Source: Escherichia coli (GTDB lineage: Bacteria > Pseudomonadota > Gammaproteobacteria > Enterobacterales > Enterobacteriaceae). Taken from it: DNA of 64,000 nt. The number at the start of each line of letters is the position of its first letter. Positions within the stretch are counted from its first letter, which is position 1. Both the position numbers and the translations under genes were made by a program. Below are positions 38,768 to 56,196 of this stretch, piece by piece. The DNA is taken from the NCBI RefSeq assembly GCF_002854065.1, contig NZ_CP024147.1. One strand, given 5' to 3'. Under the pieces are notes generated by a model. It saw only the letters and a list, made by a program, of their open reading frames with translations. It was not told the origin of the DNA and searched no databases.

Positions 38768-39247
38768 TCACGAAGATAATGATCGTATGGCTTCCTTAAG
38801 GGCTGGTGAGACACGTTGATTAAGTGCTTCATTAGCCCAGTCGGATTGCACGGGTATTCTACGCAATATCACTGTGTTTAAAGCAGCAAACAAACGATGC
38901 AGTAAATGTATAGAACCGGTCGCGATAGCTGTATCCACCCACTGGTCCGCATAGAGCCATGGGGCTGAAAATAAATCAGCCATCGCCTGAGTAGCAACTT
39001 CAATAGACGCTTTTTCTAGGCAAAGAACATCACCCTGATCGCCAAAATTATGCTCAAAGTAAGGCAATCCTTCTATATTCGTGCGAATTAGAGGAAATGG
39101 GCAGCGCCCAATGCTCAGTAAAATATAGGCGTCTATACGCTGATCATCGTCACCCACCTCTGCTGACGGCAGTTTCGCTAGTTGCCCGAGTATCATCCAA
39201 CTGGTTGATTTAGAAATGACCTTTGGGATTTGATCCTCTAAATTCAC
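38768..39247 (-). CDS. Hypothetical protein (159 aa), downstream partner of the nuclease-NTPase gene
   Basis: ORF begins at a GTG with upstream AAGAG; 70 bp after the stop of the NTPase ORF on the same strand; no recognisable motif. Confidence 0.5.
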   Translation of the reverse strand: MNLEDQIPKVISKSTSWMILGQLAKLPSAEVGDDDQRIDAYILLSIGRCPFPLIRTNIEGLPYFEHNFGDQGDVLCLEKASIEVATQAMADLFSAPWLYADQWVDTAIATGSIHLLHRLFAALNTVILRRIPVQSDWANEALNQRVSPALKEAIRSLSS

Positions 39248-39316
39248 CAGAATACTCTTTGCATCATCCCCGTGTTTAGAAATCCACGCTAATCCATCCT
39301 CAATCTTTAGATTGAC

Positions 39317-41128
39317 TTATTGGTTGTCTGGCATAGCTAAAGTAAACAATCCGTTTTTTATAGGTTCTTTATATGGCTCAATGCTGAGAAGGCCCTGAAT
39401 AATTCCAAAGCTGAAATATCTCTCTTTAGCTGCCATACGGCGTATGGCTTGAGCACCGATCATATCTCCAAGATAAGTGGCGTCTAGCCGTTCGCCAAGC
39501 CAAGCCCCGGCGTCTTGAGGGTCTTGTTCTGCCCGTAAAACCAGTTCATCACAAACAGCATCCGACAGTTCCAGAAGGTAAGCTGCGGGAACTGTCGGCA
39601 CCACAACATCTTCCCATCCTGAAAGGCGAAAAATACGAACTGCCCCCATATGTTTTAACTCATTCACTACACCACGAGCTTCGTCAGAAAGTGCGTCATA
39701 CCGCACGACAAATCCATTCGCTTTAGCAAACATTAATTCTACTGAGTGGGAGTTTGTGTCAGCTAGTGCGCAGCGTGCAAGAACCCGATAATAACGAAGA
39801 AGATCATACTGACTCTCATAGCTCTTTTGCGCAGCATCTATAAGTTCCATACCGGGTGATGGAGGAAGATAGGCGATAAGATCCGTTTTCTGGTATTGAT
39901 GATTGCGCACAATGTCATCATAAATAGTGCGAAGAACCCAAGGCGAGCGGTAGTCATCGGCGTATTCTGCTCCCTGTTGAAAAACTATCCGCTGGTCCGA
40001 GAGAATCTGTTGCGCCAGCTTAAATTCATCTAGGGACATAGGCGATGTTTTAAATACCTTCGACCGGCTACCAATTGCAGACGGAGTTCGTCCGTTTGGA
40101 TTTTTCAGTAACGCGTTGGCATGATAGGTCGTCAGAACAACCACCAGCCTGTTGCCAAAACGTATACCCGCAAGTTCCTCAAGATCAGTAGCCATTTGGG
40201 AGCCTGGTTCAACGTCGTCGATAGCAAGCATAAGCGATGGACCTTCAGTGCAGTTAGACATTCGTCTTAACCAGTTACGTGCATCATTTGAGGTTAAATT
40301 CCATTCAAATTCAGCTGCAAAAAGATTGGCCAGAGCCTGAAATAGTCCTGGTCCGGAACCTCGTAACATCAGGACAGCCAAAAGATCGCTACTTTCCGTT
40401 TTTAGCGAAATTTCACGGAGGCAACTGCTTTTTCCGCTTTGTGCATCACCCTCAATGATAGTGAAAGCTGTACCCATCACAGCAGATTCAATTACAAGAG
40501 ACGTGATTTTGCGAGGAAAAAGTAGGTTGTTGGCAAATGGATGTTCTGAATGCCCAGGCTGATCAGTTATATCAATCAGCAGCCGGGCTGTTTCTTCTCG
40601 CACAGCTGGCACCCAAGCATTAGTTTCTCGCCCCATCAAGGCTTCAATAGCCCAGCGCATGTCAGCCGCCGCCAACTTTGCAGAATTGGCGAGCATCTTG
40701 TTTACCGCTGCCGAGGCATCCTGTCCACCCGACCACTGTTGTCCATTACTTGAGTCATAAACGCGCGTATCTTTACCGTTCGTAACTACAACGAGAGGCG
40801 GACGTGGTGTTAACTGGTTAGCGTAGCTTTAAGCCTGTTCATAATCATCATGGGTCAGTGTCAGGTCTTCACGTTTCAGTTCAATAACCGCAAGTGGTCT
40901 CTCCCGATGAAAGATCAAAACATCCGCTCGCCCGTATTTTTTCCAGTGTGCGGCGCTATCTATTTTGTAAGTTCCATGGCCTAGCCGAACGGTAAAATGG
41001 CGCTGTTCGATAAGATCTTCGCGAGGAATGTTAGGAAATGCTATGTTTAGTGCTGAAGTAAGCCGGCTTTCTAGCTCGGCTTCAGTTCGAACGAGTGGAG
41101 AGCCCGTTTTTGATTGCATACTTTTCAT
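39317..41128 (-). pseudogene. PD-(D/E)xK nuclease-like N-domain fused to P-loop NTPase, interrupted by one in-frame TAA (40829-40831)
   Basis: ORF 40829..41128 (RBS GAGGA; motif D-x-ELK in ADVLIF...AVIELKRED) and ORF 39317..40696 (Walker A GDAQSGKSS, Walker B LMLAIDDVE) share one frame; the 44 codons between them are open and read SYANQLTPRPPLVVVTNGKDTRVYD, continuing the nuclease-domain pattern; no RBS before the internal ATG. Confidence 0.6.
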
Positions 41129-41771
41129 GACAAAGTATCCTCAGATATTAGTCATTGGCTAAGTTTTTATTTCACTTACTACCTTTCCAGATTAATGCGA
41201 AGACGCATAGCATTGGATTAACGGATGTGAAATGGATTATTGACAAGCAAAGTAACTTTTTCCGCATAACTATCAATTGATTAGCTGAAGAAAGGGAATA
41301 TGATTTAGTTCACTCAGGTTTCTCCAGCACGATGTGCAGATGCTAAAGCCACGATTAATTCTAAAGCAGATTAATATAACCCTGAAACAGGCAGAGCAGG
41401 AAACGCCTGTATCGGAAGTATGCCGCATGACCGCCCCCGATAACTCACACCGAATGCCAATAGGAATGTCAGCCCCTCGCTCATAGCAGACCTTCGGGCC
41501 TGGCAGCTTAGTGCCAAGAACACTCCCCAGTGGCCTATCGGCAAGTGTAAGCGTACGAATATCGCCTCCGTGCTACACAGTAGACGACTACATTTTCGAC
41601 GCATGAGCAAATCGTGGCTTTAGTTGTCTAAAACCAGTGCTTCAACACTTTTTTTTCACCAAACAACGCATCGTAGAAGCACTAGTTGGATTCCACAGGC
41701 TTACGTAAACAAATAGCGCTAACGGCTAAGCTGGTCCATTAGACGCTCAATCATCCTCGCAAGAGGTATAG

Positions 41772-42788
41772 TTACTCGATGCCCAGAACAAATGACATTA
41801 ACAAATCTAGCTTTATTTTCATGTCTGCAGTTGCCGAAGCCGCATTAACCTGCGGCAAGGCAAGCCATCTGTTTACGGCATCGGAGTTGAATCTCTGCTG
41901 CCTTAGGAACGAAGATACCGACGTTTCCCAGGAAAAGATTTCACCCCCACAAAGTTCGACGGGCTGCTGAGAGCAGGCTCGCTGAATAGTCATTCCCAAA
42001 CCGACGTAGCGGAGAAGCTCACGTCGCACATTCTCATCTTTTTGCATGACTGGTGCATCCAGTTTCGGTTTCGGTCCAAAGTACACTCCGGTAGTACCTG
42101 GTTGTAATGTCGGGTCACTGGAAAAATAAACCGGAACTCCCATCAATTTAAATGCCGCTGTCAAAATTTCATAACTAATGTCTGATCGACTCCAACGGCC
42201 CATGTGGGGTGGTACTTTTGGCAAACCGACCAGATCATCGCCACGGCTTACAATCGATACCCCCTCAACTGGCACGGATGGTTGCATTCTGAATACAGCG
42301 TCAGAATCGATTTCCCAGCCAGCTTCGCTTAACAATCGCAAAAAATTACCAGCAGCCACGCACGATGATTCACTCCACTCAACACAACCGATGCGCAGCT
42401 TGTCCCGCTGACCGAACTGTCCTGTTCGAAATAATTCGAGGTATCTGTCGCGATTGGAACTATTAACGGCATATGCATCAATCACAGTAGGCGGTACAGG
42501 TTTACTTGCAGATTCAGGATTTTGTTGAAGCAAATCTGGGCTTATGAAAAACACTATAGCGAAGATCGCCACTGCGCCAGATGCTCTTAACCACCCATTA
42601 AATTTTACTTCAAGGAAACCAGGCAGAACTGCACCAATACATCCGGCAGCCAGAGCCAGAACTATTCGGTAAACTATATATTGATAAGGTGTGGGATTGG
42701 GGGTTGTGATAGTAGTAATGAGTATGGCAACTATCGCCACAACCGCAAAACCATACCTAATGAACTTGTCTGTCCTTACACTGCTCAT
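41772..42788 (-). CDS. Hypothetical membrane protein (338 aa, N-terminal transmembrane segments plus soluble domain)
   Basis: Hydrophobic helices FAVVAIVAILITTITT, IVYRIVLALAAGCIGAVLPGF, AVAIFAIVFFISP; no recognisable catalytic motif. Confidence 0.55.
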   Translation of the reverse strand: MSSVRTDKFIRYGFAVVAIVAILITTITTPNPTPYQYIVYRIVLALAAGCIGAVLPGFLEVKFNGWLRASGAVAIFAIVFFISPDLLQQNPESASKPVPPTVIDAYAVNSSNRDRYLELFRTGQFGQRDKLRIGCVEWSESSCVAAGNFLRLLSEAGWEIDSDAVFRMQPSVPVEGVSIVSRGDDLVGLPKVPPHMGRWSRSDISYEILTAAFKLMGVPVYFSSDPTLQPGTTGVYFGPKPKLDAPVMQKDENVRRELLRYVGLGMTIQRACSQQPVELCGGEIFSWETSVSSFLRQQRFNSDAVNRWLALPQVNAASATADMKIKLDLLMSFVLGIE

Positions 42789-43218
42789 TTTAATTTTGAC
42801 ACCTGAATCAAGTCCATAAGTCGAAAATCCCGCATTAAACTGTTCCCCAATGATTAATACAGCTTTATACGCGTAATGAGGCTATTGGCGTTGGTGATGA
42901 GTGTAACTGTCCATTCCTCGCTCAGAGCAACCTTCTGCTCCAAGAGTCAGTCTACAGTGTGCAAAAAACAGACGTTGATCACAATATCGAGTTAATCATT
43001 CGGCCGTTTATCACTCCCATTGAAAAATTTCTCAGTATCCAATATACCAATGTTGAGGGCTTCCCTCTTACATCTCAAAAGGATAACTATCATGGGTCTT
43101 AAACCTGGTCCAAAACCAATTGCTAAATCGACAGGAAAACCAGATCAACGCCGACGAGATAATAAAGATACTCCTGGCAACACTCCGGGACTAAAGCCAA
43201 GTAAGTCCACCGGGAAGT

Positions 43219-43254
43219 AAAAAAATCAGGGTATAAATAAGTTATTTATACCCT
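43219..43254 (-). terminator. Intrinsic terminator of the three-gene helicase cassette
   Basis: Perfect 12-bp stem AGGGTATAAATA / TATTTATACCCT with 3-nt loop, followed on the minus strand by a 7-T run; 16 bp after the helicase stop. Confidence 0.75.
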
Positions 43255-43269
43255 GACTACATATCCAGT

Positions 43270-45468
43270 CTACTGAAGGTGTTTCTGCAGCCAGGTGCAC
43301 GTTCCTTCTATATCATACGCCTGTGCCCCATACCCTTTAGCAAGCAAAGTCTCTGGTAAATACTCGTCATATTTATCCAGATACTTGTCAGGAACAACTG
43401 CAGCAAGCTCAAACTCTGAAGGTAACCCCGACAATAGCATTTTCTTAAGTACACGCTGGACAGAGGCAACGCCTGAGTCCTCTACCTCTATCACACCTGC
43501 AAATGAACTGGCTTTAAAGCCACAACGTATAAGCAGGGACGTAATTGTATTGACAATTTTATCCCCCATCCACGGGATCACGTAGCAGTTCTGACCACTG
43601 GCAATAAAACAGTCATTGTGTAGATTGTAGCGTTGGAAGTTGTCACTTCCTTCCGCAAAGAGGCTTCTGGCTGCGGCATCAGCATAATCGACTCTCTTGT
43701 TGCCTACCGCGATACGGTAATCATTTTCCCTGTAGATAGCGAGCATCTCCTGGCGAACAACATCATGAACAGACATCCCGCTACCACTGAATAGTGGTGG
43801 CTGACCGCCTTTAGTCGCCTCAACATAGATAACCTTTTTTTCAACCTCGATCTCTGTCACTTTCCAGCGCCGTCCGCCGAAGATGATGTGCTGCTCCGGC
43901 AAAAGTGGGGAGTCTACAGGCACTGTGCCAAGAGTTCGGTTTCCCGTTACAATGCGAAACTCCTCAGGTGTATTGAATACGGCATAAAACGTGTAGTGAT
44001 TAGTCAGCTTCTCCCCCTCAGCCCCGACAACTATTTCACCGCTGGCTAGTTGACTGAGCAGGCCACATGTCCCCATATGTTTAAGCAGACTTTTAAAGTC
44101 ATTTATATCCACATTCCGGAACGGACCTGTCTGGCAAAGTTGTGACCAGAGTTGATCGGCACGAACACCTCCCCATTGCGCAGTAATAGCCAGGATCTGG
44201 TGTAGTAGTGTGGAGTAATGTTTCTGCCGGATATCTGCAGGCTCGAACCAGCGCTTAGAGATCATCAACCTGATCATTGCCATCGCCTGAACCAACTGCA
44301 GCCGTAAATGATCCACAATGCTGCTGGTTGCGGTAAGTTCAGGTTCAGTAATTAACATTCTCAGCACCGATGGGGAATCGCGCCGCCCTGAACGTCCCAT
44401 GCGTTGACGCAGACTGGAAACAGAATGCGGAGGTGTCACTTGTATGACAGACTGCACCTTACCAATATCAATACCCAGCTCCAGCGTCATTGTACAAACA
44501 GCGGTTGTGGGCAAATTCCCTTTCTGCAGTCGGGCTTCAAGCGCCTCACGTAACTCCCTGGCAAGGGAGCCATGATGAGGAAAGAATTCATTAGGAACGA
44601 CATTTGCTTCACACATGTCGCTCAGTATTGCCGCTATGCTTTCAGTACGCTTTCGACTGTTAGCAAAGACCAGGTGGGAATCGCCACGACAGAGCCTGAA
44701 AATATCCGCGCAGACGAGCTGTTCAGCAGAGCTCTGGAGCTCTTCCCCTTTTTCGAGCACCCGCTCAAGATAACCTTTAACCTGAACTTGTAGTGTAGCG
44801 GTGCTATTACTGTCTGTTACCGTTTCACAAGGTAATCTCTTATCCGGACGCAATAATTCTGGCACTTTTTCCAGCTCTCCCAGAGTGGCACTCAACGCGA
44901 CACGGGGAACTGGATTTAACTGGCGTCCCAGCACATGGTCAATTCTATTAAGCAGCGAAAGCAGTTGTATACCACGCTCTGAGCCAATAAAAGCGTGGAA
45001 CTCATCAATAACAATGTATGCCACTGAAGAAAACGCCTGTTTGAGCCAACCCAATGAGTTTATGAGCAAAGACTCAAGTGATTCAGGTGTGATAAGTAAG
45101 ATACCTGACGGGCTTGTCCGTGCTTTATTCTTTTTGCTTTGTGGTACATCCCCGTGCCAGGGCGTCACTTGCATTTCCAGGGCTTCCCCCAGGCTCTCAA
45201 GACGACGGTGCTGATCGTTAATCAATGCCTTCAACGGACTGATATAGATAATGCCAAATCCACCAGTGAGATCTGCAATCGCTGAACAGGCAGGAAGAAA
45301 GAAAGCCTCTGTTTTACCCGCAGCTGTACCTGCACTAATTAGTACATCACGATCACGGGCTAAAATTGCCGGAATAGAGCTCTCCTGCAAGGGCCTTAAT
45401 GATGACCAGCCCTGCTTATAAATCCACTTACGGACACGGGGATCGAGACTATTGTAGGCACTGCTCAT
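43270..45468 (-). CDS. Superfamily-2 DExH-box helicase with C-terminal extension; third gene of Shango-like cassette (SngC-like)
   Basis: 732 aa; Q-motif LRPLQ, motif I SAGTAAGKTEAF, motif Ia SPLKAL, motif II VIDEFHAF, motif III SAT, motif VI QRMGRSGRR; start overlaps the upstream stop by 4 bp. Confidence 0.85.
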   Translation of the reverse strand: MSSAYNSLDPRVRKWIYKQGWSSLRPLQESSIPAILARDRDVLISAGTAAGKTEAFFLPACSAIADLTGGFGIIYISPLKALINDQHRRLESLGEALEMQVTPWHGDVPQSKKNKARTSPSGILLITPESLESLLINSLGWLKQAFSSVAYIVIDEFHAFIGSERGIQLLSLLNRIDHVLGRQLNPVPRVALSATLGELEKVPELLRPDKRLPCETVTDSNSTATLQVQVKGYLERVLEKGEELQSSAEQLVCADIFRLCRGDSHLVFANSRKRTESIAAILSDMCEANVVPNEFFPHHGSLARELREALEARLQKGNLPTTAVCTMTLELGIDIGKVQSVIQVTPPHSVSSLRQRMGRSGRRDSPSVLRMLITEPELTATSSIVDHLRLQLVQAMAMIRLMISKRWFEPADIRQKHYSTLLHQILAITAQWGGVRADQLWSQLCQTGPFRNVDINDFKSLLKHMGTCGLLSQLASGEIVVGAEGEKLTNHYTFYAVFNTPEEFRIVTGNRTLGTVPVDSPLLPEQHIIFGGRRWKVTEIEVEKKVIYVEATKGGQPPLFSGSGMSVHDVVRQEMLAIYRENDYRIAVGNKRVDYADAAARSLFAEGSDNFQRYNLHNDCFIASGQNCYVIPWMGDKIVNTITSLLIRCGFKASSFAGVIEVEDSGVASVQRVLKKMLLSGLPSEFELAAVVPDKYLDKYDEYLPETLLAKGYGAQAYDIEGTCTWLQKHLQ

Positions 45469-46781
45469 AGTCTGAAATTCGCCAGGCCATCATCGTCATC
45501 ACTTTCCTCCACAATGGCATCCCCCATATCGCTGGGCTTGTCTTCTTCAATCGCCACCCCCTCAATGAGAGCTTGCCAGTTCATCGTACTGTTTTGTTCC
45601 AGCACAGCCAGCATATCCAGAAAACCTTTTATGGTATTGCGGGGAGTTCGAAAGTAAGCATCTCCGATGGTTTTGCTGCAGTGATGCAGAAACCCGGTCA
45701 GAGCCTCATCTGGCACCAGATAATTTGCGGGATCTCCACCAGCATAAACATGACGAAGATTTTTCAGTAAAATATACAGTTCCTCAGGAGTGAGGCTGGC
45801 AAGATGTAGCGTGGGAGACGAGTAGTCAATCACGCCAGCTTTCTGTGCGAATCGATTTTCTGCCAGACGCGACTGGAGCGCTTCATAGCTGTAGAGCCCC
45901 TTACGTGGATCGAAAAGAAACTCTGGCGTCCCCCCGAGGATAAAACCAATATTTTCGGCGGAGCCTTGCAGGCAGTCATTCAGGATCCGCAAAATTTGTT
46001 CGTAGTTGGCCGTTCTCGCTTGCGTATTATTCAACTTGAAGAGGTTCACCATCTCGTCGAGGCTAACTAAAAGTCCGGCATAGCCTGCCTGACGGACAAA
46101 AAGGCTCATCAACTTCAAAGAGTCATAGAACGAGGCGTCTGAGATAATCGTTCGGACGTCAAGATCATTACGGGCATCAGTTTTTGTGGTGTACTCGCCC
46201 CGCAACCAGCGAATAGCATTGGATTTTAAGGTTTCGTTATCCTGCTCATGCCCGCGCCAGAATGCGTCAATGACCTTCGCAAAGTCATATCCACCCACCA
46301 TATCTGACAAAGCAGCAAGGCGTTTATGAATAACGGATGAGACCTGGGAGCCGTTCGCATCAGCTTCCTTCCTTGCCTCAGTAACAAACCTTTCCACAAC
46401 GCTAAGTAATGCATTGCCATCTGGTTTGTTTCTGGTGGACATATTTTTCATAAGCTCTGAGTAGAGATTACGAGCCTGACCTCCCGATGAGTGAATACGT
46501 CTGTCGGGAGAAAGGTCTGCACTGACCGTGACCAGCTTTTTCTCTAACGCAATAGACCGTACAACACTTAAAAAGAACGTTTTGCCGGAACCATACTCAC
46601 CAATGATAAGTCTGAAGCTTGCCCCGCCATCAGCAATCCGTTCAATATCCTGATGGAGGGCGGTTATCTCATTCACGCGGCCAACCTGGATATGCTGAAT
46701 ACCTATCCTTGGCGTTACTCCCGACTTAAGTGACTGAATAATAGCGTCGCGCTCTTTCACTCTTATACGTGTTACAGACAT
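45465..46781 (-). CDS. P-loop ATPase; second gene of Shango-like cassette (SngB-like)
   Basis: 438 aa; Walker A GEYGSGKTFFL, Walker B LLVSLDEM; start 3 bp after the upstream stop. Confidence 0.85.
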   Translation of the reverse strand: MSVTRIRVKERDAIIQSLKSGVTPRIGIQHIQVGRVNEITALHQDIERIADGGASFRLIIGEYGSGKTFFLSVVRSIALEKKLVTVSADLSPDRRIHSSGGQARNLYSELMKNMSTRNKPDGNALLSVVERFVTEARKEADANGSQVSSVIHKRLAALSDMVGGYDFAKVIDAFWRGHEQDNETLKSNAIRWLRGEYTTKTDARNDLDVRTIISDASFYDSLKLMSLFVRQAGYAGLLVSLDEMVNLFKLNNTQARTANYEQILRILNDCLQGSAENIGFILGGTPEFLFDPRKGLYSYEALQSRLAENRFAQKAGVIDYSSPTLHLASLTPEELYILLKNLRHVYAGGDPANYLVPDEALTGFLHHCSKTIGDAYFRTPRNTIKGFLDMLAVLEQNSTMNWQALIEGVAIEEDKPSDMGDAIVEESDDDDGLANFRL

Positions 46782-46784
46782 TCA

Positions 46785-49094
46785 CTAACCCTCTAATTCT
46801 TTGGCTATTTCCAGGTCAACCCAAATGTGATCATCAGCATCTTCCAGCACTGGTGCATCAACCACCGCATAGGACCAATCGTTAATCACCTCAAGCGCAC
46901 CGCCGAGCATCAGGTTCCAGTTACTACACAACTCTGTCGCCTCTTTTCTGGACCATTGTTCTTTCTCCAGCAACCTGCGATAAAGTTGGCTATGAGCGGA
47001 GTCAAGCCCCCCTTCCCCGGTTAATGAGGCTGGAGCGCTTTCTGGTTGTTCTGGTTCTTCTTCAGTGAAAATCGAGTTCAGTAATTTACGAACATCATCA
47101 GTGGCAGATTCGTGGCGGGCAAGTACATTGGCATCCAGCGTAAACCCTGCCGTCGACTGATTAGCTGGTACAGATGAAACGAGAGCAGTTTCAGTTACGG
47201 AATGCTGATGGATATTGCTTGATACGGATGAGGGATCCAACCCCAGGCTTGTATAAATCTTCTCAAGCTGTTTGATTTCGGCAGGCGTAATTCTGCCGTC
47301 AGAGCAAGCGACACTAACGATAACCTTACCCACAGCTGATTTTTCCGCTGCACCGAGTAACTCAATCCGGCTTTTCATTCCCGTCATATTCGCCGGGGTA
47401 TGAAGCTGCCACGTTAAATATGCGTGCAGAGAGCGCTTTTCATCATCGCTGAAGCTGACATTGTTGTTGATGGCATTCTCAAGCACTTTCTGTTCGGCTT
47501 GATCGAAAGAATTGTCAATCAAGGCGACTACCGAACCTAATCGGAGCGTCAATACAGCTGTGATAAATTCAGGAGAAGGAGAGAAGCGGCCACTTTCACC
47601 AGCAGGGAATAAAACAAGAACACCATCGACATCTGCTTTTACGTGGTGGTAATAGGGGTCAGGAGCCAGGCAGTACCCCATTTTCTGTGCAAAGGCCTGC
47701 ATCAAGTCGGCCTCTTTTTTGTTGATCTTTGCCGGACAGGTAGCATTCATGTGTGACCAGAAGTCAGCAACTGAAACTACTCCCCCCTTACTGAGGATCG
47801 CGTCATCAGCCCAGCGTTTGAATGCACTTAATATTTTATCTGCGCTTTCGTTAACGATTTCTGAAGGCAGCAACAAAATTGCAACGGTATCATTTGCTGA
47901 AGTGCCTTTTCTACCAAGGTAACGACTGTAAGCATCCAGTTCATCTGTGCATATATCAGCAAGAGTCATAAGCTTCTGAACAGGGCCTTTCAATGCACTT
48001 GGATCAGGCAAGTCAGGAACAGGAAGCCGAATACCTCTCAAACTGGGACTTGCAGGCGTGTAATCTAAACGCAGACGCGCTTTATTCGGCTTCACTACCA
48101 TCCCTTCACCGTATTTAAGGGTGTAACGCCGTTTAAATAGTGCAGCAAATTCTTTCGCACAGCGGCGGGCGGGGGTTCGTAATGAGTATTCAGTATGGTT
48201 TGTCACCCACGTCAGAGCCAGATCCGCTGGAACCGGGGCTCCTGCATCAACTGTCTTTGCCAGGATTAACCTGAACTGCATGCTATTGCTGAACTCTGAA
48301 TCATCGCTGAGAGCTGCTGCAAGATTTTCGTTCGGACGAAGAATGGACATCGCTTCAAGTAACTGGGACGAGTAGTTCCGGAATGATCTGTTTTCATTGA
48401 AAACAGATCTGAGACGGCAGATCTCTTTGAAAAGAGAATAGAACTCATCGTCAGATATATTGCTGTCCCTGCTGTCAACAAGCGCCCGTCTTTCCAGACC
48501 ATACAGATAAATAAAAACGTAACCAATTGGGCAAGAAGTGTCACATCTGTCGCTGGTAAGCCAACTCAGGTACGCGCCACGTGCTTCAGGTGAAAGTGAG
48601 GAATAACTGGGCCAATACCCTAATGAACTATCTTCGTAGATGTAAGATGTGGGGTATATCTTGAGCGTGTCGTCAATTAGCGATGCCTCGCTACTATCAT
48701 CATAATAACCGCCTGAGTTATGCCCGACAGGGTTCATTCGCTGTCCAAGATAGAAGTAGCCGCCGGTAATCTCTACCCCACCGACTGTGATCACCTCCCC
48801 CGGTAAAATCCAGCGAGCCAAAGCACCGGTAGTTTTTGAGAAATTCTGGCGTTGAGTGGCTGTTATACTGTATTCGGCATTCCGCCCGCCACTTAGTGTA
48901 AACGTAGCCAGATTGTCATCTTCGCTGTCCTCGTTGTGCATTACAGACTGATTTTTTTTGTTATTAGCAAGCCATTCTTTAGGTGGTGCTTTCACAGGAG
49001 CGGAAGTATAAGAGCCCGCGGACTTAGTTTTCTTCTTTTTGAAAAAAAGAATATAAATCAAATAAATCGCTACTATAAATATCCATAACTCCAT
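46785..49094 (-). CDS. Membrane-anchored TerB-N/TerB-C-type protein; first gene of Shango-like cassette (SngA-like)
   Basis: 769 aa; N-terminal TM helix MELWIFIVAIYLIYILFF then basic linker KKKKTK; size, position and architecture match the TerB-domain component of the TerB-ATPase-helicase triad (assignment by recognition, not by HMM). Confidence 0.7.
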   Translation of the reverse strand: MELWIFIVAIYLIYILFFKKKKTKSAGSYTSAPVKAPPKEWLANNKKNQSVMHNEDSEDDNLATFTLSGGRNAEYSITATQRQNFSKTTGALARWILPGEVITVGGVEITGGYFYLGQRMNPVGHNSGGYYDDSSEASLIDDTLKIYPTSYIYEDSSLGYWPSYSSLSPEARGAYLSWLTSDRCDTSCPIGYVFIYLYGLERRALVDSRDSNISDDEFYSLFKEICRLRSVFNENRSFRNYSSQLLEAMSILRPNENLAAALSDDSEFSNSMQFRLILAKTVDAGAPVPADLALTWVTNHTEYSLRTPARRCAKEFAALFKRRYTLKYGEGMVVKPNKARLRLDYTPASPSLRGIRLPVPDLPDPSALKGPVQKLMTLADICTDELDAYSRYLGRKGTSANDTVAILLLPSEIVNESADKILSAFKRWADDAILSKGGVVSVADFWSHMNATCPAKINKKEADLMQAFAQKMGYCLAPDPYYHHVKADVDGVLVLFPAGESGRFSPSPEFITAVLTLRLGSVVALIDNSFDQAEQKVLENAINNNVSFSDDEKRSLHAYLTWQLHTPANMTGMKSRIELLGAAEKSAVGKVIVSVACSDGRITPAEIKQLEKIYTSLGLDPSSVSSNIHQHSVTETALVSSVPANQSTAGFTLDANVLARHESATDDVRKLLNSIFTEEEPEQPESAPASLTGEGGLDSAHSQLYRRLLEKEQWSRKEATELCSNWNLMLGGALEVINDWSYAVVDAPVLEDADDHIWVDLEIAKELEG

Positions 49095-49166
49095 GAGGCA
49101 ATAACCTTAAAAATAGCTTTTCACGAACACCGAAAGGATGACGATGGGAAGTGGATTAATCTTAAA

Positions 49167-49194
49167 ATAATACTTCTAAATTACAAAGGTTAAA
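49167..49194 (-). promoter_or_regulatory. Putative sigma70 promoter for the three-gene cassette
   Basis: Minus-strand TTTAAC (-35) - 16 nt - TATTAT (-10), about 75 bp upstream of the first start codon. Confidence 0.25.
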
Positions 49195-49561
49195 AGCAAA
49201 TCACAACCTTCCCGAACCTCCGCTTTTCGCTTGCTACGGTCCCTGCCGAGCATGAATCTCGTCTATGCCCAAAAGCGGACATTGATAATTCAGAAACCAT
49301 GGCAGAAGTGTGGTATCAGCCCCTCACCTGATGCCTGCCAGCATCGCACCTCGCTTCATGTCTAACCTCTCTGTTAGCCCGGCAGGGTCAATGGCTCTGT
49401 TGACAATGGTGCTACTTTCCAATACGTTAAGCACAAGGTTAGCGCGACCCGGCAGCTCACGGCCAAAGCGGAATGCAGCGCAGACTTATCAAATCTTTTT
49501 TGGTTAAGTGTCTTTGATTCTTATGATTCGTGAGCACATAGGACAGATAAGAGACTTAAAC

Positions 49562-50135
49562 CATGAAACAAATCCCCACATGCGCTGAAGCAAAAGCCCA
49601 CGCCAAATACCTTTCACGGTCGCTCAATATCAATCTAAGCTACGCCCGGGATGCAGTGGCATTACGTTATAACTACCATAACTGGTCGGAACTCAGCACA
49701 GTATTTGGTCAGCTTAGCTGATAAGTACATGTCGTGCTATGGCCTTGCCAGTCATGAAGAGAAGCGTGTTTTTAGCCAGCTTCTGGCACCATATATCGCA
49801 GAATTGCAAAATGTCATTCATCCTGACCGCCATGTACGGAAAGCTTGATACGTAAGATTGCTGAAGGCCATATTTCCCGGGTATCTGGTAAAGTGATGTC
49901 GGCTGTAATACGTGAATGCGAGGATTTTCCTCCCACGACAGTTAAAGACATCATTGAACTGCTTGAATTTTATGATGAAACGGCCAGCCGGATATTAGCA
50001 GGACACCACCGGCAGATCCCGACCAATAATCCCTTGCTGAAACCCTGGGTATTTGGTGTGCGCTTTTATGCCTATAACCACTTTAATGCCAAGCTGGTCA
50101 CCATCTGTGATCTTCCGCCAACATGCCTCTTCTGA
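49562..50135 (+). pseudogene. Gene of unknown function broken into three consecutive frames (53+65+96 aa)
   Basis: ORFs 49562..49723, 49651..49848, 49845..50135 succeed each other in frames 2, 1, 0 with short overlaps, suggesting two frameshifts in a ~190-codon gene. Confidence 0.3.
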
Positions 50136-50248
50136 ACTCTCCCGACGTCAACAAAACCCCCTCTAATCCCTTATATATCAGGATTTCTTTGTATCCAGAG
50201 GCCAACCGCCTTCACCCCGTATCAAGTTACTTTTGGGGGTATAATTTA

Positions 50249-50689
<441 letters not shown>

Positions 50690-50785
50690 CATGCATCACA
50701 ACAGCTCCTCATAGGCACTCAGTGGTCGATGTTCCACCTGACTGATCTGCTGCCAGAGCGGGGCGTGAGGTTCCGGTACTATCTG

Positions 50786-51082
50786 CTAGCCAGACGACAC
50801 TGAGCAGAGGCGATGTGAGGCCACCAGTTTCTCATTACTGTAGATCCGCAACTCATCGTTCAGCGATATTCGTATCGAGACTGGCTGACCACACAGCATT
50901 TCGGGAACGCTGTACTGATTACCTCCAACTTCGTTATAGCGGGTCCCAGGACACATGGCGGATGTCGAAGTAACTGGTATCGAAGTCTGTATCCGGTAAC
51001 GGCTGCAGATGTTCCTGCTCCAGCGCGAAGCGCTGTTCCGGCGTTTCTTTGAACTGACGAAGCTCCCATTTGTCAGCCACAT
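50786..51082 (-). pseudogene. Transposase C-terminal remnant (possibly IS21 IstA-like; family uncertain)
   Basis: 98-aa ORF ...YSVPEMLCGQPVSIRISLNDELRIYSNEKLVASHRL resembles transposase C-terminal domains; no N-terminal catalytic region. Confidence 0.35.
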
Positions 51083-51234
51083 CGGCTAGCGCCAGCTAAC
51101 CTATGCGGTACTGGCCTTGGTGCTAACCCGCGTTAAAGCTACCACGTTGATCAGAGCCTCTCTCCCGGAAAGTCATACTGTCTTACATATTAATCACTCA
51201 AAATAGAGTAAATAAAATCGGTAATGACTCCAAC

Positions 51235-51738
51235 TTATTGATAGTGTTTTATGTTCAGATAATGCCCGATGACTTTGTCATGCAGCTCCACCGATTTTGA
51301 GAACGACAGCGACTTCCGTCCCAGCCGTGCCAGGTGCTGCCTCAGATTCAGGTTATGCCGCTCAATTCGCTGCGTATATCGCTTGCTGATTACGTGCAGC
51401 TTTCCCTTCAGGCGGGATTCATACAGCGGCCAGCCATCCGTCATCCATATCACCACGTCAAAGGGTGACAGCAGGCTCATAAGACGCCCCAGCGTCGCCA
51501 TAGTGCGTTCACCGAATACGTGCGCAACAACCGTCTTCCGGAGACTGTCATACGCGTAAAACAGCCAGCGCTGGCGCGATTTAGCCCCGACATAGCCCCA
51601 CTGTTCGTCCATTTCCGCGCAGACGATGACGTCACTGCCCGGCTGTATGCGCGAGGTTACCGACTGCGGCCTGAGTTTTTTAAGTGACGTAAAATCGTGT
51701 TGAGGCCAACGCCCATAATGCGGGCAGTTGCCCGGCAT
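51235..51738 (-). CDS. insB: IS1 InsB transposase reading frame
   Basis: 167-aa [19 protein letters not shown]... (a few substitutions relative to copy 1). Confidence 0.9.
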
Positions 51739-51932
51739 CCAACGCCATTCATGGCCATATCAATGATTTTCTGGTGCGTACCGGGTTGAGAAGCGGTGTA
51801 AGTGAACTGCAGTTGCCATGTTTTACGGCAGTGAGAGCAGAGATAGCGCTGATGTCCGGCGGTGCTTTTGCCGTTACGCACCACCCCGTCAGTAGCTGAA
51901 CAGGAGGGACAGCTGATAGAAACAGAAGCCAC
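51657..51932 (-). CDS. insA: IS1 InsA
   Basis: 91-aa ORF; canonical TTAAAAAACTC frameshift window. Confidence 0.9.
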
Positions 51933-52145
51933 TGGAGCACCTCAAAAACACCATCATACACTAAATCAGTAAGTTGGCAGCATCACCAATAAAATCATAC
52001 AACTAGAGAGTGATTATAATTGTTATTGAACACTGGTTATCCCATTTTTGTTATATTGATCACAAAACCCTTCTTTTTATGATGATCTAAAAATAAATAT
52101 TAAATATTGTGGTCAGGCCGCTAGACCGCAATAAGAGGAAATATC

Positions 52146-53435
52146 ATGAAAAGAAAAACCATGGGGTGGATTATCGTTTTTCTTCTGTTTATAGTTTACA
52201 TGCTGAACTATATGGATCGTTCTGCATTATCGATTACGGCCCCACTTATCGAAAAAGAGTTAGGCTTTAATGCTGCTGAAATGGGGATAATTTTCAGCGC
52301 ATTTTTCGTTGGTTATGCTTTATTTAACTTCATTGGCGGTTGGGCCAGTGACAAAGTTGGACCCAAAACAGTATTTTTGGTTGCTGCACTGTTGTGGTCT
52401 GTTTTTTGTGGTATGACCGGTCTGGTCACCGGATTATGGACAATGCTTGCCGTACGTGTTTTATTTGGTATGGCAGAGGGCCCGGTTAGTGCAGCAGGAA
52501 ATAAAATTATTAATAACTGGATCTCGCGTAAAGAGTCGGCAACAGCTATCGGTATTTTTAGTGCTGGTTCACCACTTGGTGGCGCTATTTCTGGTCCGGT
52601 CGTTGGCTTGCTGGCAATATCACTTGGCTGGCGTCCGGCGTTTGGGATCATATTTATATTTGGCCTAGTTTGGGTATTACTGTGGTACTTCTTTGTCAGT
52701 GATAAACCGTCAAAAAGTAAACGTCTGGCAGCGGAAGAACGTGTCGATTTCGAAAACCATGACGATATTATTCTAGCCGAAGATGGTAAAGGTACACCTT
52801 CGCTTGGTTATTACATGAAGCAGCCGATGGTATGGGCGACCACGCTGGCATTTTTTAGCTATAACTATATTCTATTTTTCTTTCTTACTTGGTTTCCAAG
52901 CTATTTGAATCATTCATTACACATTGATATTAAAGAAATTAGTATTGCAACTGTTATCCCGTGGTTTATTGGGGCAATTGGCATGGTGTTAGGTGGCGTC
53001 TGCTCTGACTTTATTTATCGTATTACGGGAAATGCCTTACTTTCTCGCCGTTTAATTCTCGGCAGTTGCCTTGCGGGGGCCGCGGTTTGTGTCGCTGTTT
53101 CCGGAACTGTTACCTCTATTGGTAGTGCGATTACGCTGATGTCTGTTTCCTTATTCCTGCTTTATCTAACTGGACCTATTTATTGGGCTGTTATTCAGGA
53201 TGTAGTGCATAAAGATAAAGTAGGTAGCGTAGGCGGTGCGATGCACGGTCTGGCAAATATTTCCGGCATTATTGGTCCATTGGTAACCGGTTTTATTGTC
53301 CAGTTCAGTGGTAAATATGATTACGCATTCTATCTTGCAGGTGCCATAGCAATCATTTCAAGTCTGCTGGTATTCATTTTTGTTAAAAATAAAGGATTGA
53401 AAGTCAATGAAAGTCAAAGCTGTGTACATCAATAA
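52146..53435 (+). CDS. MFS transporter (anion:cation symporter-like; sugar-acid/hexuronate-type)
   Basis: 429-aa polytopic ORF with N-terminal motif LNYMDRSALSITAPLI and 12 predicted helices. Confidence 0.85.
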   Translation: MKRKTMGWIIVFLLFIVYMLNYMDRSALSITAPLIEKELGFNAAEMGIIFSAFFVGYALFNFIGGWASDKVGPKTVFLVAALLWSVFCGMTGLVTGLWTMLAVRVLFGMAEGPVSAAGNKIINNWISRKESATAIGIFSAGSPLGGAISGPVVGLLAISLGWRPAFGIIFIFGLVWVLLWYFFVSDKPSKSKRLAAEERVDFENHDDIILAEDGKGTPSLGYYMKQPMVWATTLAFFSYNYILFFFLTWFPSYLNHSLHIDIKEISIATVIPWFIGAIGMVLGGVCSDFIYRITGNALLSRRLILGSCLAGAAVCVAVSGTVTSIGSAITLMSVSLFLLYLTGPIYWAVIQDVVHKDKVGSVGGAMHGLANISGIIGPLVTGFIVQFSGKYDYAFYLAGAIAIISSLLVFIFVKNKGLKVNESQSCVHQ

Positions 53436-54432
53436 ACCTGGTGAAATTGCTACCCGTCTGGTCGATTATCCAGTAAGAAAAGATAATGAAGTTTTAATTA
53501 AAGTGGATGCAGCGGGAATTTGTGGTTCTGACATCGGTGCATTTCGTGGTACTAACCCACTGGTAACTTATCCGAGAATTATTGGACATGAAGTCACCGG
53601 GATTGTTCTGGAAACCGGTGAGGGGGTACCACAAAATATCAAACAGGGCGACCGGGTTATTGTAGATCCCTATGTTTATTGCGGTCACTGTTATCCATGT
53701 TCTGTAGGTAGAACTAATTGCTGCGAGAACTTAAAAGTCATCGGCGTACATATTGATGGCGCTATGCAAGAAGTGGTTTCGCATCCGGCTCACTTAATTC
53801 ACAAAATTCCTGACAATGTACCGTCAGAGATGGCGCCACTGGCTGAACCCTTAACTATTGCCCTACACGCATTACATCGAGCGCAATTGAAAGCAGGTGA
53901 ACATGTCGTCATTATTGGTGCAGGCGCTATTGGACTTATGGCGGCCCTGAGTTCGTTGAACTATAAAGCAACTCCCATTCTGGTTGATATTGTCGATGAA
54001 CGGTTGCAATACGCGAAATCGCTCGGCGTACCTTATGTAGTAAACTCCGCAAAAGCTAATGTTATTGAGGCAGTGAAAGATATTACACAAGGGACGATGG
54101 CTCAGGTTGTGGTGGAAGCCTCTGGTGCAAATAGCGCAATCAGAAGTACCCTGGATCTGGCCTCATTTGCAGGGCGTATAGCCTATACTGGTTGGCCAAA
54201 GCAGGAAACATCGTTACCAACTAATCTAATTACCTTTAAAGAACTAGATTTACGTGGTTCCCGTACCAGTGCCGGTGAATTTGAAGAAGCCCTGCAAATG
54301 TTATCAACGCTGAATATTAATCCGGCTGATATCGTGAGCAAAGTCGTGACAATAGATGAAGTTCCTGAGGCTGTAAAAGAGTTAGATCAATTTCCGGAAC
54401 GCTATCTGAAAATTAACGTGAAATTCATTTAA
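53407..54432 (+). CDS. Zinc-dependent medium-chain dehydrogenase (sorbitol/idonate dehydrogenase-like)
   Basis: 341-aa ORF with catalytic-zinc motif GHEVTG, structural-zinc Cys cluster CGHCYPCSVGRTNCC and NAD-binding GAGAIG; start overlaps the MFS stop by 29 nt. Confidence 0.85.
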   Translation: MKVKAVYINKPGEIATRLVDYPVRKDNEVLIKVDAAGICGSDIGAFRGTNPLVTYPRIIGHEVTGIVLETGEGVPQNIKQGDRVIVDPYVYCGHCYPCSVGRTNCCENLKVIGVHIDGAMQEVVSHPAHLIHKIPDNVPSEMAPLAEPLTIALHALHRAQLKAGEHVVIIGAGAIGLMAALSSLNYKATPILVDIVDERLQYAKSLGVPYVVNSAKANVIEAVKDITQGTMAQVVVEASGANSAIRSTLDLASFAGRIAYTGWPKQETSLPTNLITFKELDLRGSRTSAGEFEEALQMLSTLNINPADIVSKVVTIDEVPEAVKELDQFPERYLKINVKFI

Positions 54433-54458
54433 TTATAATTAACAAAAATAAAAAGTCT

Positions 54459-54488
54459 GACGCGTAGTGTATTCACTACGCGTTTTTT
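54459..54488 (+). terminator. Intrinsic terminator of the transporter-dehydrogenase operon
   Basis: ACGCGTAGTG-TATTC-ACTACGCG followed by TTTTTT, 27 bp after the dehydrogenase stop. Confidence 0.75.
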
Positions 54489-54975
54489 ATGTGCGCCGTG
54501 ACTGGCGCTGTTCTTCAACTGTGGTGGCTGAAGAACGACTAAGAGGTGAAAGTTCTCCAAACACCCGGTGAGGGGAAATGTTAGCGGAAGGCAAGGATGT
54601 TCATCGCGAGGTGAAATCTGAAGGAAGCCGGATGCAAAATGCTGGCCTGACGAACAGGAAGCGGCTAAGGCGGCACAAATCACCAAAGCCCAATACTCAC
54701 ACGGAACGCGGTGACGTACAGCCGACAGGCATAAGCAGGAAAGTCGTGCGAATTACCCCGGGAGATCTGCCGCTCTGCCAGTGTGCTACCGACGCCGTAG
54801 TAGCGCTGCAAAACCGGCAGCATGAAGGGCCGAACATAATTAACCGTGATTAGGACATCCGAACCCGATGATGATTAATGAAGCATAAACGCAGGCAACT
54901 GCGGCCAGCGGCAGAAGAGACGGACGGCATCCTGAGGTGTACTGGCAATAGCGGACACTACCATTTGTTCTTTTT

Positions 54976-55794
54976 TTAAGCAGCCATCTGATGATATTTT
55001 TCCCTGAAGGCTGCCGGGGAGATATTCCCCAGACGAGAGTGACGACGCTGACGATTGTAGAAAATCTCAATGTATTCCCGTATTACTGAGATGGCCTCAT
55101 CCCGGCTATTAAAACGATAGTGGCTCAGGCTCTCATTTTTCAGCGTTCCCCAGAAGCTTTCCATCGGAGCGTTGTCGTAACAGTTACCTTTACGCGACAT
55201 TGATGTTTTCAGACCAAACTGCTCCTGGATGACCCGGTAATCGTATGCGCAGTACTGTGAACCTCGATCGGAGTGGTGGATTAGCCCGGCAGGTGGGCGC
55301 TGGCTCCTGAGCGCCATAAACATTGCTTTACCTGTCAGCTCTTTTGTCATGCGCTCTCCCATGGCGTAGCCGACAATTTCGCACGTATAAACATCTTTGA
55401 TGCCAGCGAGGTACAACCATCCCTCCTGTGTGGCAACATACGTCAGGTCCGCCACCCAGACCTGATTTGGTACTGTAGGAGCGAACGTCTGGTTCAGCAG
55501 ATTTGGCGCAACTGGCAGATTGTGGCTCGAGTTCGTAGTCGCTCTGAACTTGCGTTTCTGCTTACAGCGTAGCCTTAGCTCCTTACGAAGACGTGCCAGT
55601 CGGTCACGACCAACGATGATGCCATTCTCTGCCAGCTCCGTCTGGAGCCGCCGGGTTCCATATGTTTCGCGAGTGCTGATATGTGCCACCTTAATCTCCA
55701 GTTTTAGCCGCTCATCACTTTGTTTTCTGTCTGAGGGGTCATGCTGTACCCAGTTGTAATAACCGCTCCTGGATACACCAAATACCTGACACAT
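54976..55794 (-). CDS. IS3-family OrfB DDE transposase (IS600-like)
   Basis: 272-aa ORF with DDE region ...WVADLTYV...HSDRGSQY...[12 protein letters not shown]... Confidence 0.85.
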
Positions 55795-55829
55795 CGCTTC
55801 AATGGGAAATTGTTGTCGCCATTGTTCGA

Positions 55830-56132
55830 TTAACGCGTATTTTTCAGCGACTCCTGTGCAAAATACGCTGTTGCTTTTTTTAATATATCTCGCTCAAGGC
55901 GAGCTTCATTTAACGCCTTACGCAGTTGCAGAATTTCAGATTCCAGTTCAGCCACCATGCGGGAACCAAGAGTACCGAGCCCTTTTCTGGCGGCGGTAAC
56001 CCATTGTCCTAAAGTGCCTTCAGGAAGAGATAATCGGGAAGCGCCTTCACTGATCGAAAGTTGATTTTCAAGAACCGTTCTGACAGCTTCGGCTTTGAAC
56101 TCTTTAGAGTAACGTTGGGTTTTTCTGCTCAT
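55830..56132 (-). CDS. IS3-family OrfA (IS600-like)
   Basis: 100-aa ORF MSRKTQRYSKEFKAEAVRTVLENQLSISEGASRL... Confidence 0.85.
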   Translation of the reverse strand: MSRKTQRYSKEFKAEAVRTVLENQLSISEGASRLSLPEGTLGQWVTAARKGLGTLGSRMVAELESEILQLRKALNEARLERDILKKATAYFAQESLKNTR

Positions 56133-56196
56133 TATTAGCTCCTTCTGATGCCATTCTATTTCAGGAAGGAGTGTCCGTTAAACTCAGGCTACCTCA

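What the first reader, a model, noticed from the sequence alone, without database searches (positions are those of the whole stretch)
38768..41128. Nuclease-NTPase gene split by a single in-frame TAA inside its PD-(D/E)xK domain, with a 159-aa partner
ORF 40829..41128 (99 aa, good RBS, motif ADVLIF...AVIELKRED reminiscent of HsdR-N/Mrr-type PD-(D/E)xK folds) and ORF 39317..40696 (459 aa, Walker A GDAQSGKSS, Walker B LMLAIDDVE) are in the same frame. The 44 codons between them contain no stop and read SYANQLTPRPPLVVVTNGKDTRVYD, which continues the nuclease-domain pattern. The internal ATG at 40696 has no Shine-Dalgarno sequence. This looks like one ~600-codon nuclease-NTPase gene carrying a single nonsense codon at 40829-40831, followed 70 bp later by a 159-aa gene of unknown function. 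An N-terminal nuclease fused to a P-loop (possibly STAND-like, hhhhDD Walker B) NTPase is a typical defence or abortive-infection layout. The nonsense codon may be an inactivating mutation, which would suggest the system is costly, or a sequencing error. I cannot assign it to a named system from sequence alone.
Basis: seen in the sequence. Interest (0 to 1): 0.75.

Follow-up and report, generated by a model that had tools for sequence, protein, structure and literature searches.

The report
Decayed nuclease-ATPase gene in defence island
The three open reading frames are the wreck of one 786-codon E. coli island gene, killed by two inherited stop mutations; the intact gene encodes an uncharacterised nuclease fused to a switch-type ATPase that sits among anti-phage genes and is repeatedly broken in E. 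coli.

Summary
Two points in the description are wrong. There are two in-frame TAA codons, not one (the second is at 39317-39319). The "159-aa partner" is in the same frame and is the C-terminus of the same gene. In 233 complete E. coli genomes the locus is a 786-aa CDS (WP_000839828.1) with CAA at both positions. Independent public assemblies carry nested alleles (Q100* alone; Q100*+Q604*+V626I; the window adds one silent change). The lesion is therefore inherited stepwise decay, not a sequencing error.

The protein has an HsdR-N type PD-(D/E)xK nuclease domain, with invariant D69/E83/K85 and Q98-x-Q100-x-Y102. The first stop removes the invariant Q100. Next comes an AAA+ module whose predicted fold best matches CED-4/Apaf-1/Cdc6, MuB, Avs4 and Avs5, followed by a helical and beta-strand C-terminal region with no specific match.

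The family is large (324 clusters at E<=1e-30), about 790 aa throughout, has no conserved partner, and lies on integrative islands beside known defence genes. No PADLOC system model or paper covers it. E. coli shows several other independent disruptions (5-bp deletion in 35/233 genomes, 1-bp deletion, IS3 insertion).

Verdict: an ordinary pseudogene of an uncharacterised, probably Avs-like, defence candidate.

The parts
38768..41128 (-). Whole pseudogene: 786 codons in one frame plus the normal terminal TGA. It is orthologous to the intact E. coli CDS WP_000839828.1 ('type I restriction enzyme HsdR N-terminal domain-containing protein').
   Evidence: Translation. 99.8% identical to the intact CDS in 233 complete genomes. 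Four transitions separate the two.
40829..40831 (-). First ochre codon: TAA in place of CAA (Gln100). Gln100 is invariant and lies in the Q98-x-Q100-x-Y102 helix of the nuclease domain. This was the founding lesion.
   Evidence: C>T at 40831. (Q100 invariant in 29 homologues). (0 of 234 complete genomes carry it). (L018 and L021 have this stop only).
39317..39319 (-). Second ochre codon: TAA in place of CAA (Gln604), at a variable position in the C-terminal beta-rich region. It was acquired after the first stop.
   Evidence: (0 of 233 complete genomes carry it). (nested alleles: absent in L018/L021, present in L017/L019/L020/L022 and the window).
39253..39253 (-). G>A on the coding strand, giving V626I. 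It is shared with the double-stop alleles.
39335..39335 (-). Silent C>T at codon 598 (GCC>GCT), seen only in the window allele.
40724..41083 (-). N-terminal PD-(D/E)xK nuclease domain of the HsdR-N type (residues about 16-135). Catalytic D69, E83 and K85 and the Q98/Q100/Y102 motif are invariant.
40049..40510 (-). P-loop AAA+ nucleotide-binding domain (residues about 207-360). Walker A G227-K233-S lies at 40427..40450 and Walker B L299-D304-D-V-E at 40208..40234. R347 is invariant.
39389..40045 (-). Helical lid and winged-helix-like region following the ATPase (residues about 362-580).
   Evidence: AF2 model with pLDDT 83.6. About 400-column Foldseek alignments to CED-4, Apaf-1, Cdc6 and NLRC4.
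38771..39373 (-). C-terminal small beta-rich module plus helical domain (residues about 586-786). It is the putative sensor or regulatory region and has many invariant residues.
41138..41142 (-). GAGGA Shine-Dalgarno sequence 9 nt upstream of the ATG at 41128.
   Evidence: Read directly from the sequence.

Best explanation
Window 38768..41128(-) is a dead copy of one 786-codon gene.

Shown:
- A C>T change turned the invariant Gln100 codon (CAA) into TAA. This truncates the protein inside its HsdR-N type PD-(D/E)xK nuclease domain.
- That lineage then accumulated a second CAA>TAA (Gln604), a V626I change and a silent change.
- The three ORFs are therefore fragments of one gene, not a gene plus a partner.

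Inferred:
- The intact protein is a stand-alone anti-phage or anti-mobile-element effector carried by mobile elements, built like a compact Avs/NLR-type protein.
- Its C-terminal helical/beta region would sense an invader-derived cue.
- The central STAND/Cdc6-like AAA+ module would bind NTP and drive oligomerisation.
- Oligomerisation would bring the N-terminal nuclease domains together to cut DNA.

In this strain nothing past residue 99 is made from the native start, so the function is lost, while the neighbouring Shango system stays intact.

My confidence in the pseudogene part is about 0.97. My confidence in the defence and Avs-like mechanism is about 0.45.
For: Pseudogene:
- The region is one frame with two TAA codons.
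- An intact 2361-nt CDS is present in 233 complete genomes, with CAA at both sites.
- Independent assemblies carry nested alleles that fix the order of events. The 99-aa product is seen on 53 contigs.

Single-gene architecture:
- 194 homologues of 770-840 aa were found by word search.
- 324 clusters at 50% identity reach E<=1e-30, and nearly all are full length.
- Mean column identity is 66% along the whole length.

Domains:
- Pfam HSDR_N matches, and D69/E83/K85/Q98/Q100/Y102 are invariant.
- The Walker A and B residues are invariant.
- Fold matches include CED-4, Apaf-1, Cdc6, NOD2, NLRC4, Avs4 (up to 814 columns), Avs5 and Avs3.

Defence context:
- E. coli: Shango SngABC lies adjacent.
- P. 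aeruginosa: retron-type RT and a DpdB-like gene.
- Burkholderia: PDC-S21. Vibrio: PDC-S46. Viadribacter: an AriA-like ATPase.
- All of these loci sit on integrase, ICE or Tn7-like islands.
- No partner gene is conserved across lineages.
Against: - There is no experimental evidence of defence.
- No PADLOC system model, including the Avs models, matches beyond the nuclease domain.
- Pfam nSTAND hits are only marginal (best E=1.5e-3).
- The residue after Walker B D304 is D or G, and the next acidic position varies.
- The C-terminal region has no TPR or other recognisable sensor fold.
- One ICE-borne lineage (Dickeya, Pseudomonas, Burkholderia) has a tightly coupled upstream DUF5623 gene, so the system may not always be a single gene.
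Confidence: 0.6

Rival explanations
1. The intact protein is a restriction-like enzyme that recognises foreign DNA directly. The AAA+ module would load or polymerise on DNA, in the manner of MuB, TnsC or McrB, and deliver the HsdR-type nuclease. It would not be a sensor-triggered, Avs-like suicide nuclease. The window copy is still a pseudogene.
Confidence: 0.25
2. One reading: a gene of about 600 codons with one nonsense codon, plus a separate 159-aa partner gene, forming a two-gene system.
For: The ORF list does show a 159-aa ORF with a GTG start 70 nt after the 459-aa ORF.
Against: The ORF is in the same frame, and the spacer has no stop other than the TAA. The intact E. coli allele reads straight through with CAA. 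All homologues carry the segment fused. The single-stop allele L018 has one 642-aa ORF that spans it.
Confidence: 0.02
3. The stop codons are sequencing or assembly errors and the gene is intact in the organism.
For: Neither TAA occurs in any of 233-234 complete RefSeq E. coli genomes that carry the locus.
Against: The exact 99-aa product is recorded on 53 contigs from NCBI, ENA and Logan assemblies. Six sampled loci show a nested series of alleles. Both changes are base substitutions, not homopolymer indels.
Confidence: 0.02
4. The fragments still work, either as a split three-subunit system or through ochre read-through or re-initiation.
For: Long ORFs remain: 459 aa with the intact ATPase and 159 aa.
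Against: - There is no SD before the internal ATG at 40696.
- The first stop removes an invariant residue and the last two strands of the nuclease fold.
- The second stop cuts inside a folded module.
- Mutations continue to accumulate, including a second nonsense codon.
- No homologue is split at these positions.
Confidence: 0.03
5. The family serves the mobile element itself (maintenance, addiction, exclusion of rival elements, or target choice) rather than phage defence.
For: The gene is always on integrative islands, ICEs or Tn7-like elements. The ATPase resembles the transposition ATPases MuB and TnsC.
Against: No transposase or recombinase is consistently adjacent, and the gene occurs on unrelated element types. 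The neighbours are defence genes rather than transfer genes.
Confidence: 0.08

Closest known systems
Avs4 / Avs3 (antiviral STAND NTPases with N-terminal nuclease effectors; PDB 8dgf, 8dgc)
   Same: The layout is an N-terminal PD-(D/E)xK-class nuclease, then a P-loop switch ATPase, then a C-terminal region. Foldseek aligns 685-814 columns to Avs4 (E=1.9e-6) and 719 columns to Avs3 (E=9.9e-5). Both occur in defence islands.
   Different: This protein is about half the size (786 aa against 1500-2000). No TPR sensor was detected. No PADLOC Avs model matches. The nuclease is HsdR-N type. TM-scores are low (0.23-0.27). The Walker B +1 residue is D or G.
Avs5 (SIR2-STAND, about 770-830 aa; PDB 9nc9, 9jap)
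   Different: The effector is SIR2 rather than a nuclease. There is no sequence-level relationship.
Type I restriction enzyme HsdR subunit
   Same: The N-terminal nuclease domain carries D...ExK and QxxxY motifs (Pfam HSDR_N/HSDR_N_2). This is the source of the RefSeq product name.
   Different: There is no SF2 helicase motor. The NCBIfam EcoAI HsdR model scores 22 bits against a cut-off of 550. No hsdM or hsdS lies nearby.
MuB / TnsC / Cdc6-ORC AAA+ ATPases
   Different: No transposase or replication partner is present. This protein has a fused nuclease and a large C-terminal region.

Membership tests
PD-(D/E)xK nuclease, HsdR-N type (Pfam PF04313/PF13588) | Profile match to the HSDR_N families | tested here: met
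   HSDR_N_2 E=7.6e-9 and HSDR_N E=1.4e-8 over residues 63-131. 29/29 and 27/29 homologues match.
PD-(D/E)xK nuclease, HsdR-N type (Pfam PF04313/PF13588) | Catalytic D ... (D/E)xK triad and QxxxY helix conserved | tested here: met
   D69, E83, K85, Q98, Q100 and Y102 are invariant in 29 homologues of 45-88% identity. In the window copy, Q100 is replaced by TAA.
PD-(D/E)xK nuclease, HsdR-N type (Pfam PF04313/PF13588) | Nuclease activity | not testable with these tools
   Needs biochemistry.
Type I restriction enzyme (HsdR) | SF2 helicase/translocase motor after the nuclease domain | tested here: not met
   No ResIII, DEAD or Helicase_C hit in Pfam. NCBIfam EcoAI HsdR scores 22.4 bits against a cut-off of 550, and only over the nuclease domain.
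Type I restriction enzyme (HsdR) | Adjacent hsdM and hsdS genes | tested here: not met
   None in the E. coli islands or in other genera.
STAND / NLR-like NTPase (including Avs) | P-loop with conserved Walker A and Walker B | tested here: met
   G227, G232, K233 and D304 are invariant.
STAND / NLR-like NTPase (including Avs) | Nucleotide-binding domain followed by a helical domain and a winged-helix domain | tested here: inconclusive
STAND / NLR-like NTPase (including Avs) | Sequence-profile membership (Avs, NACHT, NB-ARC, nSTAND) | tested here: not met
   There is no PADLOC Avs hit at E<=0.01. In Pfam, AAA_22 and AAA_16 match, nSTAND_NTPase5 and nSTAND3 match only at E>=1.5e-3, and NACHT and NB-ARC do not match.
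STAND / NLR-like NTPase (including Avs) | C-terminal repeat sensor (TPR, LRR or WD40) | tested here: inconclusive
STAND / NLR-like NTPase (including Avs) | Trigger-dependent oligomerisation and phage defence | not testable with these tools
   Needs experiments.
Shango (SngABC) | The gene matches an Sng component or is needed to complete the system | tested here: not met
   SngA, SngB and SngC are all present and intact at 43270..49094. The target protein hits no Sng model. The target also occurs without Shango (L001).

The most novel reading that the evidence does not exclude
The intact family (about 790 aa: HsdR-N nuclease, STAND/Cdc6-like ATPase, and a unique C-terminal domain) is an unrecognised single-gene anti-phage system, in effect a compact 'mini-Avs'. 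Its many independent disruptions in E. coli (two ochre codons here, a 5-bp slippage deletion in 15% of carriers, a 1-bp deletion and an IS3 insertion) would then reflect selection against an autotoxic nuclease rather than neutral decay.
Probability: 0.35. Interest if true: 0.55.

Novelty: new variant of a known kind. Interest (0 to 1): 0.33.

Why it matters
For this window, the result corrects the annotation: there is one pseudogene, not a gene plus a partner, and the order of its decay is known.

More broadly, it flags a large and strongly conserved protein family with a fixed architecture. The family is currently named only after its nuclease domain, is missed by PADLOC, and sits among defence genes in many Proteobacteria. 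If it defends against phages, it would be a small and tractable nuclease-NTPase sensor. Natural E. coli null alleles already exist for comparison, and the recurrent losses give a way to ask whether such effectors are costly.

Tried and rejected
- **DUF5623 as a conserved partner.** A 438-aa DUF5623 gene lies 13 bp upstream in Dickeya, Pseudomonas and Burkholderia. It is absent from E. coli, Vibrio, Sphingomonas, Viadribacter and the metagenomic relatives, so it is specific to one lineage.
- **The E. coli 338-aa upstream gene as a DUF5623 relative.** There is no similarity.
- **Local hypermutation.** The island differs from its best reference by about 1.3 changes per kb, and the gene by 4 in 2361 nt, so there is no excess.
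- **Chance of two nonsense codons among four changes.** The probability is 0.005-0.023 under neutrality. Once the first stop exists, however, a second among the remaining three changes is not unusual (about 0.1-0.2). This is not evidence for selection.
- **Sequence search of the PDB.** Only a Cdc6 hit at E=0.54.
- **PHROGs.** Only a self-like family of unknown function.
- **Literature.** Searches for DUF5623, WP_000839828, PF13588 with defence, HSDR_N with phage and STAND, and 'HsdR N-terminal' with anti-phage found nothing on this family. The E. coli defence-island paper PMC10121019 does not mention argW, yfdC or HsdR.
- **Stop-codon recoding.** Rejected. The host is E. coli and all relatives have Gln codons at these positions.

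Full report
**1. The observation**

On the minus strand the window holds three ORFs: 40829..41128 (99 aa), 39317..40696 (459 aa) and 38768..39247 (159 aa). The 44 codons after the TAA at 40829-40831 are open. The start at 41128 has a GAGGA 9 nt upstream, and the internal ATG at 40696 has no Shine-Dalgarno sequence.

Translating 38768..41128(-) gives 786 sense codons with exactly two internal TAA codons, at codons 100 and 604, before the normal stop. The 23 codons between the 459-aa and 159-aa ORFs are open.

**2. The intact gene in other E. coli**

A megablast of the region against 5426 complete E. coli genomes finds the locus in 235, and in 233 at more than 80% coverage, all on chromosomes. 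In these genomes it is annotated as one 2361-nt CDS, WP_000839828.1, 'type I restriction enzyme HsdR N-terminal domain-containing protein'.

The window differs from that CDS by four transitions:
- CAA>TAA at codon 100 (position 40831);
- a silent GCC>GCT at codon 598 (39335);
- CAA>TAA at codon 604 (39319);
- GTT>ATT, giving V626I (39253).

Seventy-base probes centred on each TAA match none of the 233-234 complete genomes perfectly.

**3. The lesions are real and ordered**

The exact 99-aa product is recorded in many independent public assemblies. The index lists it in 91 blocks, and it is seen on 53 contigs, the longest being a 4.64-Mb chromosome. Six of these loci form a nested series:

| Locus | Changes relative to the intact CDS |
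|---|---|
| L018 | Q100* only |
| L021 | Q100* plus one further C>T |
| L017, L019, L020 | Q100*, Q604*, V626I |
| L022 | Q100*, Q604*, V626I plus two more substitutions |
| Window | Q100*, Q604*, V626I plus the silent change at codon 598 |

Q100* therefore came first, and the gene has been drifting since. This excludes sequencing error and a functional split.

Divergence across the island from its closest reference is about 1.3 changes per kb, so the gene is not locally hypermutated. Two nonsense codons among four changes is unlikely under neutrality (p = 0.005-0.023). Once the first stop had relaxed selection, a second among the remaining three changes is unremarkable.

**4. Other independent disruptions in E. 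coli**

- A 5-bp deletion removes one copy of a tandem GCTTG at nt 1623-1627. It is present in 35 of 233 complete genomes, and its 565-aa product is recorded on 723 contigs.
- A 1-bp deletion in an A6 run at nt 187 is present in 6 complete genomes. Some of these could be long-read homopolymer errors.
- A 1313-bp IS3-family insertion with a 3-bp target duplication lies after nt 654 in O26:H11 strain 11368.
- Several further truncated products are listed (113, 176, 321 and 495 aa).

At least 18% of complete genomes that carry the locus therefore hold a broken copy. Whether this reflects a cost of the gene or ordinary island decay cannot be decided here.

**5. Setting**

The gene lies in an integrative island at the tRNA-Arg/yfdC site. 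The order in the window is:
- integrase, 34816..36033;
- a PapB/FocB fragment;
- a frameshifted IS3 remnant, 37452..38591;
- the pseudogene;
- a 338-aa predicted membrane protein, 41772..42788;
- a complete Shango system: SngC 43270..45468 (E=7e-277), SngB 45465..46781 and SngA 46785..49094.

**6. What the intact protein is**

*Nuclease domain.* Pfam finds only the HsdR-N nuclease domain, at residues 63-131, plus a weak AAA_22 hit. Across 29 homologues, HSDR_N_2 matches 29/29, AAA_22 matches 15/29 at E<=0.001, and AAA_16 and nSTAND match only marginally. In an alignment of 29 homologues (45-88% identity, mean column identity 66%), D69, E83, K85 and Q98/Q100/Y102 are invariant. So are the Walker A residues G227, G232 and K233, the Walker B residue D304, R347 and many C-terminal residues. 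The first stop replaces the invariant Q100. The second stop falls at a variable position.

*Predicted structure.* The AlphaFold2 model (pLDDT 83.6, pTM 0.73) shows an alpha/beta nuclease domain (residues 16-135), a helical linker, a P-loop domain (207-360), helical and winged-helix-like modules (362-580), a small beta module (586-640) and a helical C-terminus.

*Fold comparison, whole model.*

| Method | Match | Score |
|---|---|---|
| Foldseek | CED-4 (426 columns) | E=6.8e-7 |
| Foldseek | Avs4 (up to 814 columns, TM 0.27) | E=1.9e-6 |

Foldseek also lists Cdc6, Apaf-1, NLRC4, Avs5, Avs3 and MalT among its significant hits.

*Other libraries.* A profile search of PDB sequences gives only Cdc6 at E=0.54. 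PADLOC has no system model for the protein, only weak nuclease-domain hits. NCBIfam's HsdR model scores 22 bits against a cut-off of 550. Despite its name, the protein is therefore not a type I restriction subunit.

**7. Family and neighbours**

The family is large and uniform. There are 1169 clusters at 50% identity with E<=1e-3 and 324 with E<=1e-30, and nearly all are 770-810 aa matched end to end. Named members include Dickeya, Pseudomonas, Burkholderia, Shewanella, Aeromonas, Vibrio, Ralstonia, Sphingomonas, Mesorhizobium and Acidobacteria.

No partner is conserved. A DUF5623 gene sits 13 bp upstream in one ICE-borne lineage (Dickeya, P. aeruginosa, Burkholderia) but nowhere else. The E. 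coli 338-aa neighbour is confined to E. coli and is unrelated to DUF5623.

The neighbours are defence genes on mobile islands:
- P. aeruginosa: a retron-type RT and a DpdB-like gene;
- Burkholderia: PDC-S21;
- Vibrio: PDC-S46;
- Viadribacter: an AriA-like ATPase;
- a metagenomic contig: an Mrr-type nuclease and AddAB-like genes;
- E. coli: Shango.

**8. Most likely mechanism**

That the window copy is a pseudogene of one 786-codon gene is shown. The rest is inferred. The intact protein is probably a stand-alone effector directed against phages or other mobile DNA. Its C-terminal region would respond to an invader cue, the STAND/Cdc6-like ATPase would switch or oligomerise on NTP binding, and the clustered HsdR-N nuclease domains would cut DNA, as in Avs3/Avs4 or, by size, Avs5.

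The main rival is a restriction-like enzyme in which a MuB/TnsC-like ATPase assembles on DNA directly. The fold scores do not separate the two models.

I found no paper on this family.

**9. Verdict**

The finding is a real and correctly located lesion, but an ordinary one: an inherited, progressively decaying pseudogene in a mobile island.

The moderately interesting part is the intact family. It is an uncharacterised, widespread nuclease-ATPase found in defence islands, it is absent from PADLOC-DB v2.0.0, the one defence-system catalogue I could search, and E. coli keeps breaking it.

Noticed in passing
window 43270..49094 (-): A complete and apparently intact Shango system lies next to the pseudogene: SngC 732 aa, SngB 438 aa and SngA 769 aa, with PADLOC E-values from 7e-277 to 6.5e-103. 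Only the nuclease-ATPase gene in this island has decayed.
   Followed up: partly
window 41772..42788 (-): A 338-aa protein with about three N-terminal hydrophobic segments. It has no Pfam-type or PADLOC assignment; only PHROGs of unknown function (phrog_23803, phrog_5814) match. It lies 644 bp upstream of the pseudogene and stays linked to it in E. coli islands that lack Shango (L001, L003). It is absent next to homologues in other genera.
   Followed up: partly
L006 6672..7988; L007/L008 6672..7988; L011-L013 6672..7988: A 438-aa DUF5623 (PF18536) gene ends 13 bp before the homologue in Dickeya, P. aeruginosa and Burkholderia, and is about 81% identical among them. It may be a lineage-specific partner or regulator. 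It has no PADLOC hit and no literature.
   Followed up: partly
window 51219..51988: A segment of about 770 bp that is absent from the closest reference island (L005). It encodes an IS1 InsB-like ORF (51235..51738), so it is an IS1 insertion private to this lineage relative to that reference.
   Followed up: partly
window 27824..34500 versus 34600..64000: The chromosomal flank (fadL-yfdF-mlaA-yfdC side) is only 96.7-99.1% identical to strain AMSCJX02, while the island is about 99.9% identical. The island is therefore shared between different chromosomal backgrounds, or the flank is a recombination hot region.
   Followed up: no
window 34600..64000: Of the differences from L005 that change a G or C to an A or T or the reverse, the window carries the A/T allele about 20 times and the G/C allele about 6 times (my own count from the list). 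This fits recent, unpurged GC>AT-biased mutations in the window lineage. All four changes in the pseudogene are of this type.
   Followed up: no
window 37452..38591 (-) and 34816..36033 (+): A frameshifted IS3-family transposase remnant lies immediately downstream of the pseudogene. A P4-type tyrosine integrase lies at the tRNA-Arg end of the island. That integrase carries an internal stop in some other strains (L001, L003).
   Followed up: no
L002 10744 (nt 1623-1627 of the gene): The commonest E. coli null allele is loss of one copy of a tandem GCTTG repeat (GGCTTGGCTTGGC becomes GGCTTGGC). This is a slippage-prone site and could recur independently. It is present in 35 of 233 complete genomes.
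   Followed up: partly
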